From the NCBI GenBank assembly GCA_951406725.2, contig OX597819.1:22940001-23004000 (forward strand): a DNA stretch of 64,000 bases, written 5' to 3'. A program made the position numbers and the translations under genes. This document shows, piece by piece, positions 15,522 through 41,258 of this stretch. This stretch comes from Octopus vulgaris. Taxonomy: Eukaryota. Positions within the stretch are counted from its first letter, which is position 1. Each line of letters opens with the position of its first letter. The notes under the pieces are model-generated. The model was not told the DNA's origin, did no database searches, and saw only the letters and a program-made list of their open reading frames with translations.

Positions 15522-15733
15522 AAACAGTGGTTTTGATATCAACAAAGGGTTAAGCATGAAGCTAGGAAAATGTTTTAATATCGTAAGGTTAAGCATTTCC
15601 TCCTTTTGTGGTTAAGTCTTTTTGAAATATATTTAGACACTCTCCAGATGGCGCACCTAATCGGTTTTGGTGCAGGAAAGGTGATTCACGTTTGCGAGAC
15701 TATATATATATATCACTGTTTATTTCTGTGTTC

Positions 15734-15769
15734 CTTTCTGTTGAAGAGCGTAGGCTCGAAACGTAAAAG
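15734..15769 (+). ncRNA. Minimal hammerhead-like motif with CUGUUGA variant core
   Basis: cttt CTGTTGA A GAGCgtagGCTC GAAA CG TA aaag; related copies at 1175-1212 and 21651-21685. Confidence 0.55.
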
Positions 15770-15930
15770 ACTTTCTCACTTCCCGAGCGAGCGTTAAACT
15801 AATACATCTGTTTGTTATTTACACACCCGTCTTCGTCTTTTGTTTTTTGTTTTGTAAATTCTCACTATATTTATGTATGTATATATGTATGTATGTATGT
15901 ATGTATATGTACATGTATATGTTTTGTTGT

Positions 15931-16280
15931 ATTTCGGGAGGGTCATTTTTTCTTTTGCCAAATAAACACACCCACTATATATTCGTCCTTCATTCGTTTA
16001 TTACTATTTTTATTTTAACTCATGTGAATTGTCTGAAAATATTTCGTCATACATCTATGACGTCATCAGCAACACTTTCCGATAAAATAATTGAATAGAC
16101 TAAGCGGAGCAGGAGCACACACGATGATGGAATGTGTCGGTGCAGGGGTCACAAATGTGTAACGAAAGATTTCAGGAGAATGGACATGAATTAAAATAAG
16201 AACAGTAATAAACGAGTGAAGAACGAATATATAGTGCGGATGTTTATTTGGCAGAAAAAAGAAAAATAGCCAACCGAAAA
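15931..16280. repeat. Imperfect inverted repeat, about 150-bp arms
   Basis: gccaaataaaca..cactatatattcgt pairs with acgaatatatagtg..tgtttatttggc. Confidence 0.85.
16033..16072 (-). ncRNA. Hammerhead-like core in the arm of an inverted repeat
   Basis: Minus strand: ttg CTGATGA c GTCATAgatgTATGAC GAAA tatt TT cag; stem I only 3 bp. Confidence 0.4.
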
Positions 16281-16714
16281 TTAAAAAATCAGCTTCAACA
16301 CACGGTTTCACATCAGGAATCTTGCAACATGAAGTCATAAATGTGCGCGCGCGCGTGTGTGTGTGTCTATATATATGAAACCAAATAATGTGCTTCTCCA
16401 CTTTCTTATTTGTAATATAAATTAATGGTAAAATATTTCTTTACCTTCACCCTTTTAATACAATAAGTAAGTTTATTGCATTGCAATTAAAAACACATAT
16501 GTATTAATAATTATGTATTATACCAGCAGTGTATTGGATAAGTATTATCCTTTAGTGGGTTGGATCCACAACCTCTAACTTACTTGATATATATGTATAT
16601 ATATATATACAAAAGTATACACATATATGTGTTTGCCTGTGTGTGTGTGTGTGTGTGTATAATTAAGATTGGTTTCAGCCATACACACACACATATATAT
16701 ATATATATATATCA

Positions 16715-16777
16715 GACTTCGGCTGATGAGCAATCACGCGTCTAGGTGGCGCTAAATTTCGAAACCGGTACCGAGTT
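16715..16777 (+). ncRNA. Type I minimal hammerhead ribozyme
   Basis: Stem I tcgg/ccga (extendable); CTGATGA; G-C closed stem II with inner gcgtc/ggcgc hairpin; GAAA; palindrome ACCGGT; GUA site. A truncated second copy lies at 17161-17206. Confidence 0.8.
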
Positions 16778-17847
16778 GAACAGCATTTGCTTGTTCTGAC
16801 CCATTTGAGGTAAGACATTATTATTGTTTACTGATATTTTTTCCTATCTTGTCTGTAATAGATTTGTGACTTTTCGGTGGTACAGAAGTATTTTTTGACT
16901 TCTCTCATGAGCGATAAAGGTACTCATTTAGTACCCTTATGTATATATGTACATATTTAATATTGTATGTATATATTTTATTAATGTGCCTGTACGGCTG
17001 ATAATTCGCTCACCACTTGTGATGGTATTTTAATAATACCATCCCTATATTTATCTATAAAGGATTTTACGCATTTCGTTTGTTCGTACGGTGCTTGGTC
17101 ACTTCAAACGAACTTTCGCAGGCATGATGGGGGAGAATGTTAGTAGTTATTTATCTGGCGGACTTCGGCTGATGAGTAATCACGCGTCTAGGTGGCGCTA
17201 AATTTCCGCAACTTCCCGCATACACTTTCCGCAACTTTGCGTAGGCATCTGGGCAGGTATCGCCATAACAGCTTTCTCACTCATGGTTAATGCGACGATC
17301 ACACGCTACACACCTTCCTTCCAAGCACTGCTGTAAACAGAGGAAGTGAGCTAGAACGTTAAAACTTAATGCGCATTCACAGCAGAGTCCAAGGTCAATT
17401 TGTGTCCAGCAGCTACACTATTTATGTTGAAGAAGCTGAACATTAAAAGGACAATATTCTGCAATCAACAAACACACATTTGTCCAATCTCAAGCAAAAT
17501 TCGATATCATCATTCCTATAGCATACCTATAATGATTTCAAAGCAAAATTTTTACCTAGGTTCAAATTACATGCAGGCATTCATCGCAAATTGATGCTGC
17601 TTCTTTTACTTTACGTTTTTTTAAAAATCTTTTCCTTTACACATTCATGCTTCGAATCGACGGGAGTGGCCATCATGATAAGCATATTTTCATAAGGAAT
17701 ACTATTATCATAGCACTTCTTCATTCTCCTTTTCGAGATCCACTTTTCTTTATTGTTATTTTCATTTTTTCACTTATTGTCAATTGATTATTGTTGGTCT
17801 TGTTGCTAGTGTTGAAGTGGTTTTATTATTAGCTCTCTTTATATACT

Positions 17848-21599: not shown

Positions 21600-21766
21600 T
21601 GAACCACAAGTGTTTTCTTTTGTTCTCTGTCCGTTTATTTTCTTGTGTCCTTTTCTGTTGAAGACCGTAGGCTCGAAACGTAAAATACTTTCTCACCTTC
21701 CCGATCGTCAAACTAATACACCTGCTTAATCTTTTGTTTTTCTGCAAATTTCAACTATATATGTAT

Positions 21767-21865
<99 letters not shown>

Positions 21866-40376: not shown

Positions 40377-41084
40377 TCAAGATATACCACAATCATTTTT
40401 ACCGGGGCGTCCAGATCTTTTGATCTTCGGTTTACTACCCCTTCTAATTAAGCTTCGACTTCTAAGAAATTTTTTTTTCTCCTCATCTGTGTCGCCTTGT
40501 TCTTCTGCAGTGTGATCCAATGACAAACGGCGTTTCAGGAACGGTTCCAACTGCCTAACAGAAGGAATATTTGCTTGAATTAAAAGGATACGGAATATAT
40601 CATTTATACATTCGCCAGTCTTAGCAGAAACTTCAACAAATTTTCCTTTGAGCCCATCATTATTGACCCAGTCCAATGCGTCAAATTTTTCGATAATACG
40701 GTCATTTTCTAAATCAACTTTATTGCCAACAATGACCACAGGGATCTTTTCATAATCTCGCCTCTCCTCCTTAATTTGATCCCAAAGTTGTTTGACTTCT
40801 TTATATGAGGCTTCGTTAGTTATCGTATATACCAAAGTAAAAGCATGTGCCGTAGAAATGGATAAACGCCGCATAGCAGGAAATGGAATGTTTCCAGCCG
40901 TGTCTAAAATATCAACTTTAATAAGGCTACCACTGATATCGTACTGTCGGCAGAACAAATCTTCAACAGTTTCGTGGTATTCGGATGTAAAGGCCCCGAA
41001 CAGAAATCGTTTAATGATGCTACTTTTACCCACCCCACCGGCTCCTAGAACCACAACACGGTGCCGTTGGTCAGTGTCATTCAT
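40377..41084 (-). CDS. Ras-family small GTPase, RASD/Rhes/DIRAS-like, 235 aa, single coding exon
   Basis: Intact ORF with G1 GAGGVGKS, G2 ETVED, G3 DTAGN followed by FPAMRRLSI (RASD/DIRAS-type), G4 NKVD, G5 SAK, polybasic tail and CaaX (CGIS). Confidence 0.96.
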   Translation of the reverse strand: MNDTDQRHRVVVLGAGGVGKSSIIKRFLFGAFTSEYHETVEDLFCRQYDISGSLIKVDILDTAGNIPFPAMRRLSISTAHAFTLVYTITNEASYKEVKQLWDQIKEERRDYEKIPVVIVGNKVDLENDRIIEKFDALDWVNNDGLKGKFVEVSAKTGECINDIFRILLIQANIPSVRQLEPFLKRRLSLDHTAEEQGDTDEEKKKFLRSRSLIRRGSKPKIKRSGRPGKNDCGIS

Positions 41085-41258
41085 ATTGTAAATAAATGTT
41101 TGTTTAATTCAAAACATGAAACCATCAAGCATTGGTCGACACACTTATCCTTCAGTTGGTAGATAATTAAATCTTGTTCCTCATAAAACAATTAATACTG
41201 CAGATGCAACTCTGAATTTTCTTTTCTGTTTTCCTTTATGATATTCCAAACGCACAAA

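What the first reader, a model, noticed from the sequence alone, without database searches (positions are those of the whole stretch)
16715..17206. 446-nt unit bounded by one complete and one truncated hammerhead
Seen: gacttcggCTGATGAG..aaatttc occurs at 16715 and again at 17161, where it stops just before GAAA. A GAG|GTAAGA donor-like site lies at 16810. Established: retrozymes are monomers delimited by repeated hammerheads and can yield circular RNA; Penelope pseudo-LTRs occur as partial tandem repeats and can contain an intron. Inference: cDNA of a roughly 446-nt monomer or circle with terminal redundancy.
Basis: partly seen in the sequence, partly recalled or inferred. Interest (0 to 1): 0.75.

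Follow-up and report, generated by a model that had tools for sequence, protein, structure and literature searches.

The report
Decayed Penelope-type hammerhead retrozyme copy
This is one damaged copy of a protein-less jumping repeat that carries a predicted self-cutting RNA motif and is scattered through this animal genome next to TA repeats; it was likely pasted in by a Penelope-type retrotransposon, and its second, cut-off ribozyme is likely the scar of a later deletion rather than the end of an RNA circle.

Summary
In detail: a complete type I hammerhead at 16715-16777, its first 46 nt repeated 446 nt later, and a GT donor-like site at 16810. The 446-nt unit belongs to a dispersed ORF-less family (93 exact ribozyme-core matches, 872 candidates). 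Of those 93 copies, 81 end at one of two fixed internal sites, 79 are followed by (TA)n, 27 have an adjacent inverted arm and 25 exceed one unit; none is fused to a Penelope ORF. This is the known Penelope insertion footprint, so the element is a non-autonomous Penelope derivative (non-LTR retrozyme type). The ends of this copy do not mark a monomer: the left end is an ordinary 5' truncation; the right end is not a family end and abuts an internal mariner-like fragment, likely a later deletion in a former dimer. The remaining ribozyme has a private helix II mismatch and has lost its dimer partner. No RNA circle, cleavage or splicing was shown. This scan earlier reported the same mechanism for younger 360- and 485-490-nt families in this genome; this sequence itself had no look-alike there. 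New member of a known kind; modest interest.

The parts
16683..16712 (.). (CA)n(TA)n microsatellite, left flank and likely insertion target
   Evidence: 79 of 93 family copies are followed by TA runs
16713..17160 (+). First unit: u1-446 from 16715, plus 2 nt (CA) read as the end of the previous unit; 5'-truncated start
   Evidence: differs from the family majority at 12 of 339 sites, family median 4.0%
16715..16777 (+). Complete type I hammerhead: core CUGAUGA 16723-16729, long helix II 16730-16760, GAAA 16761-16764, palindromic ACCGGU 16764-16769 in place of a stable helix III, predicted cleavage after 16770; private C at 16731 breaks one helix II pair
16810..16885 (+). Intron-like stretch: GT donor 16810, branch-like CTGAT 16831-16835, pyrimidine tract, AG at 16860-16861 or 16884-16885; splicing not shown
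   Evidence: no splice joint
16830..16855 (+). 5' arm of a predicted 26-bp G-U-rich helix (pairs with 17119-17144)
16968..16985 (+). Family end site A (u254-271), TA-like; inferred reverse-transcription start
   Evidence: 26 of 93 direct 3' ends
17021..17059 (+). Hairpin (17021-17043) and family end site B (u336-345, 17050-17059); inferred main reverse-transcription start
   Evidence: 55 of 93 direct 3' ends; fold
17119..17144 (+). 3' arm of the predicted 26-bp helix; in tandem or circular form it lies just upstream of the hammerhead
17161..17206 (+). Start of the second tandem unit (u1-46), cut off before GAAA
17203..17237 (+). Junction: a 12-nt word at 17203-17214 recurs at 17226-17237 and overlaps the last 4 nt of the element; read as microhomology with templated filler from an end-joining deletion (inferred)
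17219..17419 (-). Internal fragment of an abundant mariner-like DNA transposon, lacking both ends
   Evidence: 2372 candidates; relatives extend on both sides; ORF of relative L032 hits Pfam HTH_48

Best explanation
This is a decayed copy of an ORF-less, hammerhead-bearing 446-nt repeat family that was likely inserted by a Penelope-like retrotransposon enzyme, and its right end is likely a later deletion. Shown: dispersed family, two fixed 3' end sites beside (TA)n, variable 5' ends, tandem read-through across the unit junction, inverted arms, no fused ORF, shared variants between units of one insertion. Inferred mechanism: a multimeric or circular RNA of the unit is bound in trans by a Penelope RT-endonuclease (Neptune or Hydra type, both present), which nicks a TA microsatellite and starts cDNA at one of two internal sites; when both strands prime, one arm starts at each site; cDNA runs back through the uncleaved or religated ribozyme into the previous unit until it truncates. 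This copy ran about 1.6-1.8 units, then lost about 220-300 nt of its second unit, its TA flank and the start of a neighbouring mariner fragment. With one helix II pair broken and no partner ribozyme in cis it is predicted not to release a monomer.
For: 872 candidates, 40 scored; 93 exact core matches, control 0. In all 93: 3' ends u336-345 in 55 and u254-271 in 26, TA after the end in 79, inverted arm in 27, longer than 446 nt in 25 (a few inflated by TA runs), longer than two units in 1. Of 34 loci with an inverted arm, 19 had both outer ends at the two sites and 17 of these used one site each (binomial p 3.6e-4; a hand count gave 13 of 17). Tandem units within an insertion share 152 of 173 diagnostic variants against 0.56 background, inverted arms 121 of 141 against 0.59 (66 loci). 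Upstream of u346 none of 30 loci showed anything but more unit, truncation or inversion; Neptune-like ORF hits lay in 4 of 93 loci, none fused. Depth in three large contig runs falls from the 3' site towards the 5' side. TA targets, inverted 5' copies and one-ended tails are described for Penelope-like elements (PMC8557442, passages); two internal RT start sites, both-strand nicking and no need for ribozyme cleavage for PAc (PMC11167929, parts 1-2 of 4). Intact Neptune-like ORFs of about 753 aa exist in this genome. Right junction; contigs from runs of two organism labels bridge it (X1, X2; X9), so it is not an assembly slip.
Against: No autonomous partner sharing sequence with the unit was found among 45 Neptune-like loci and 25 Hydra-like loci; those are only the best hits of two queries. 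The undeleted allele was not seen, so the deletion is inferred from family comparison. Ends at site A could partly come from later recombination between TA-like stretches. Covariation in the ribozyme is weak (2 pairs with two-sided change, not above shuffles). Nothing here separates a circular from a linear multimeric template.
Confidence: 0.85

Rival explanations
1. One reading: this copy is the direct cDNA of one 446-nt monomer or circle, and the two hammerheads are its terminal redundancy.
For: Period is exactly one unit; the two 46-nt copies both depart from the family A at u17 (C and T; family A in 110 of 111 segments, a set partly anchored on that A), which fits one template; the unit folds as a stable circle (z -5.5, 60 shuffles) with a helix that would bring cleaved ends together.
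Against: Neither end is at the cleavage site; no 3' end near u46 among 93 copies (nearest u74 and u105); no TA flank on the right; junction enters the middle of another transposon. By hand tally, about 30 of 81 copies have a 5' junction in u27-83 and only about 5 at u57-60.
Confidence: 0.07
2. The family is only shed pseudo-LTRs of an autonomous Penelope element, with tandem forms made by template jumps or later unequal exchange; no independent small RNA exists.
For: 68 of 93 copies are no longer than one unit and only 1 exceeds two units; hammerhead followed by a donor-like site resembles a pseudo-LTR; no RNA circle was seen.
Against: 25 of 93 copies read unit-to-unit across the place where an ORF would have to lie, and none is fused to an ORF; the bracketing helix is strong in this and the 359-nt ORF-less family but absent in 4 of 4 ORF-bearing Hydra-like copies.
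Confidence: 0.08

Closest known systems
Metazoan non-LTR retrozymes (Cervera and de la Pena 2020, PMC7229834, parts 2-4 of 6 read; Li, Clavereau and Pollet 2026, 10.64898/2026.07.22.740005, parts 1-3 of 5 read)
   Same: ORF-less unit of a few hundred nt, GC below 50%, type I hammerhead with weak palindromic helix III, tandem copies, highly self-paired predicted circle, co-occurrence with Penelope-like elements.
   Different: Unit slightly longer than the 170-400 nt circles reported; mostly sub-unit or 1-1.7-unit dispersed copies, no long arrays; long two-part helix II; intron-like stretch; no RNA shown. This copy fails Li et al.'s 'active' criterion of two consecutive complete hammerheads.
Pseudo-LTRs of EN+ Penelope-like elements, Neptune and Hydra clades (PMC8557442 passages; PMC4209133 passages; PMC11167929 parts 1-2)
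   Same: (TA)n targets, partial tandems, inverted 5' arms, two internal end sites giving an optional tail, hammerhead with palindromic helix III, retained intron-like sequence.
   Different: No ORF; the two end sites are about 75 nt apart (published tail 30-40 bp) and are TA-like, whereas PAc starts at a site not homologous to the target; intron-like stretch lies downstream of the ribozyme, while in D. virilis Penelope the intron end abuts helix I.
Younger 359-360-nt hammerhead tandem family in the same genome
   Same: Same ACCGGU helix III palindrome, direct plus inverted arrays, end beside (TA)n, helix bracketing the ribozyme.
   Different: No sequence similarity to this unit, near-identical copies, up to 5 direct plus 2 inverted units at one locus, short helix II, no GTRAG donor.

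Membership tests
Type I hammerhead ribozyme | Core CUGANGA, GAAA and NUH cleavage triplet in order | tested here: met
   16723-16729, 16761-16764, GUA 16768-16770
Type I hammerhead ribozyme | Helices I and II can form; helix III stable or palindromic for dimer use | tested here: met
   90.6% of 663 cells pair in 39 distinct copies against 19-48% when slid; palindrome self-duplex -10.3 kcal/mol; this copy has one C-U mismatch in helix II; single-sequence MFE does not give the active fold
Type I hammerhead ribozyme | Match to an Rfam hammerhead model | tested here: not met
   0 matches at gathering scores in the window; E-value mode not run
Type I hammerhead ribozyme | Self-cleavage | not testable with these tools
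   needs in vitro assay; only contigs were available
Metazoan non-LTR retrozyme | Short ORF-less unit with a type I hammerhead, low GC, no LTR or PBS layout | tested here: met
   446 nt, GC 0.37, no ORF above 52 aa within the unit
Metazoan non-LTR retrozyme | Tandem copies with a complete hammerhead in consecutive units (family level) | tested here: met
   L003, L004, L016 and L065 carry consecutive hammerhead-bearing units; rare in the family
Metazoan non-LTR retrozyme | Two consecutive complete hammerheads at this locus | tested here: not met
   second copy ends at 17206 before GAAA
Metazoan non-LTR retrozyme | Expressed as linear and circular monomer RNA | tested here: inconclusive
   no holder on record as RNA; contigs cannot show ends or circles
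Autonomous EN+ Penelope-like element | RT plus GIY-YIG ORF between pseudo-LTRs | tested here: not met
   no fused ORF in 93 hammerhead-anchored loci or 30 loci anchored on u346-446
Penelope-mobilised sequence | Partial tandem, inverted 5' arm, optional tail, (TA)n target | tested here: met
Penelope-mobilised sequence | Retained spliceosomal intron | tested here: inconclusive
   signals present; none of 114 segments spanning u80-185 lacks it precisely; proximal AG lost in 25 of 129 segments; no splice joint
Penelope-mobilised sequence | Sequence shared with an identified autonomous partner | tested here: inconclusive
   none in 45 Neptune-like and 25 Hydra-like loci; most families not sampled

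The most novel reading that the evidence does not exclude
The family's RNA is a circle closed by a 26-bp G-U-rich helix that both holds the cleaved ends together and hides the branch point and pyrimidine tract of its own intron, and a Penelope RT-endonuclease dimer copies it from both cut DNA strands, one arm from each of two fixed start sites. That would give a structural reason why Penelope-type templates keep their introns and a genomic read-out of the two-site priming seen in vitro.
Probability: 0.15. Interest if true: 0.7.

Novelty: new member of a known kind. Interest (0 to 1): 0.3.

Why it matters
The copy itself is a dead fragment. The family adds one more case in which an ORF-less hammerhead repeat carries the Penelope insertion footprint, a route proposed in print (PMC7229834; 10.64898/2026.07.22.740005), and its two-armed insertions use two different fixed start sites far more often than chance, which makes the two-site priming model of PMC11167929 testable on a small RNA. 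It also warns that 'one full plus one cut hammerhead' at the ends of a copy need not mark a monomer.

Tried and rejected
Rfam scan: 0 hits. First core pattern had a wrong gap length and gave 0, corrected. A Pfam accession recalled for a Penelope domain is not in the library. Sequencing runs: no RNA holder listed; contigs of four guessed-RNA runs showed no joints and no shared start or end; gaps in cover are no evidence. Pile-up of 5' ends at the cleavage site: not seen (hand tally). Pile-up at a transcription start: not seen; a slight excess at u441-u7 is partly a mapping artefact. Continuation of the second unit elsewhere in the window, as an insertion into it would leave: none. Intron-less retrocopies: none. 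RNAalifold on 53 junction copies did not recover the long helix, and direct counts show no consistent two-sided change, only one mismatch repaired in 17 of 63 copies; one search used a register off by one and is superseded. The bracketing helix was weak or absent in most of 11 copies of other hammerhead families with longer helix II (z +0.6 to -3.1). Autonomous partner: not found. A Penelope endonuclease fragment abutting copy L082 and ORFs near L021, L146, L172 and L129 were read as chance nesting at TA targets. Paper searches 'retrozyme + cephalopod', 'hammerhead ribozyme + octopus' and 'Penelope-like + octopus + hammerhead' (listings only) gave no description of this family; the host group is my guess from the repeat landscape and from labels. 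Repbase and Dfam could not be searched and may hold it; supplements were not read.

Full report
Observation. The window has a full type I hammerhead layout at 16715-16777 and a repeat of its first 46 nt at 17161-17206, 446 nt on, stopping before GAAA; GT of GAG|GTAAGA is at 16810. Below, u1 is 16715 and the unit is u1-446. Predicted cleavage is after u56. Helix III is only the palindrome ACCGGU, which pairs with a second copy (-10.3 kcal/mol); PMC4209133 (passages) describes such ribozymes as working in dimers. Helices I and II pair in 90.6% of 663 cells over 39 distinct copies, but covariation is not above shuffles for two-sided changes, the copies were anchored on the core, and Rfam gave no hit. 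This copy has a private C at u17 that breaks a helix II pair; the second copy has T there.

Family. A DNA search of the 2.8-Gb own genome gave 872 candidates, 40 scored; the u346-446 part gave 133; an exact core pattern gave 93 places, control 0. I mapped all 93. Direct 3' ends fall at u336-345 in 55 and u254-271 in 26; 79 are followed by TA runs; 27 have an adjacent inverted arm; 25 exceed 446 nt (a few inflated by flanking TA) and 1 exceeds two units. 5' ends are spread over the unit. In 81 copies anchored at u83-106, a hand tally finds about 30 5' junctions in u27-83 and about 5 at u57-60, so most templates crossed the cleavage site intact or religated. Two subfamilies differ in loop II. 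Family divergence is about 4% (median of 108 segments) and this copy differs at 12 of 339 sites, so the family is older than the near-identical 359-nt hammerhead family in the same genome. Related sequence is in large contig runs of three organism labels, with depth falling away from the 3' site.

No ORF. Upstream of u346 the 30 loci show only more unit, truncation or inversion. Neptune-like ORF hits lie in 4 of the 93 loci, none fused. Intact Neptune-like ORFs (about 753 aa) and many Hydra-like endonuclease copies exist in the genome (clade names from motifs in PMC8557442 and recall), but 45 and 25 such loci share no sequence with the unit beyond nested copies. The driver is therefore inferred from the footprint, not identified.

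Mechanism. TA targets, partial tandems, inverted 5' arms and one-ended tails are described for Penelope-like elements (PMC8557442, passages). PMC11167929 (parts 1-2 of 4) reports for PAc two internal RT start sites, nicking and extension of both strands, and insertion without ribozyme cleavage. Here, of 34 loci with an inverted arm, 19 had both outer ends at the two sites and 17 of those used one site each (p 3.6e-4; hand count 13 of 17). Units within one insertion share 152 of 173 diagnostic variants (background 0.56) and inverted arms 121 of 141 (0.59), which fits one template variant but does not separate a circle from a linear multimer. The sense strand folds better than shuffles (z -5.9; antisense -3.6; circular -5.5). 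A predicted 26-bp helix joins u116-141 to u405-430: 1471 of 1616 cells pair in 63 junction copies against 45-55% when slid, median -26.7 kcal/mol sense and -7.6 antisense. It brackets the ribozyme, as a similar helix does in 3 of 4 copies of the 359-nt family, and none was found in 4 Hydra-like copies. Against it: no compensatory support, and RNAalifold missed it. Its 5' arm is the branch-like and pyrimidine-rich part of the putative intron, so the intron signals may be masked by the helix or may be a by-product of it. No intron-less copy was found in 114 segments and no splice joint in four contig runs.

This copy. The left end follows a TA run like other 5' truncations. The right end at u46 matches no family end, has no TA flank, and joins 17219-17419, an internal piece of an abundant mariner-like repeat, through a 12-nt word repeated 23 nt further on. 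The rest of the second unit is not elsewhere in the window. I infer a later end-joining deletion in a former dimer of about 710-790 nt. Contigs from three runs guessed to be RNA, three studies and two organism labels, bridge the junction: the junction is real and probably old; expression is not shown.

Comparison and verdict. It works like, and at family level meets the sequence criteria of, a metazoan non-LTR retrozyme (PMC7229834 parts 2-4; 10.64898/2026.07.22.740005 parts 1-3), with circular RNA untested; this locus fails the two-complete-ribozyme criterion. It is not an autonomous Penelope element. Three paper searches found no description of the family. Earlier notes of this scan report the same footprint for younger families in this genome (8 of 249 shown) and none for this sequence; I had reached the two-site result before reading them. 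New member of a known kind, interest 0.3.

Noticed in passing
window 15720-15920: Remnant of another repeat with a minimal hammerhead-like motif near 15740-15770 after a TA run; similar stretches at 1162-1358 and 21633-21808. Read as a Penelope pseudo-LTR remnant.
   Followed up: no
window 15947-16266: Imperfect 320-nt palindrome, 71%.
   Followed up: no
window 40380-41108 (-): 243-aa open frame with a strong Pfam Ras hit, E 2.3e-39; apparently a single-exon small GTPase gene.
   Followed up: partly
L183-L189 (G000:C1:20002278-20004542) and others: Young 359-360-nt hammerhead tandem family, 5 direct plus 2 inverted units at one locus, ending beside (TA)n.
   Followed up: partly
L190, L197-L199, L204, L205: Further hammerhead families with a GTRAG donor 3-4 nt after the cleavage site and a TTTCTGTAG acceptor-like site about 70 nt on.
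   Followed up: partly
window 16742-16754: Loop II of this subfamily reads TAGGTGGCGCTA, which resembles the CTCF binding motif as recalled; the other subfamily lacks it. Untested.
   Followed up: no
L082:1111-1490: A Penelope-like endonuclease frame breaks off just before its GIY motif where a family copy begins; chance nesting or template switch.
   Followed up: partly
L181: A hammerhead-like core at the centre of a near-perfect 75-bp inverted repeat.
   Followed up: no
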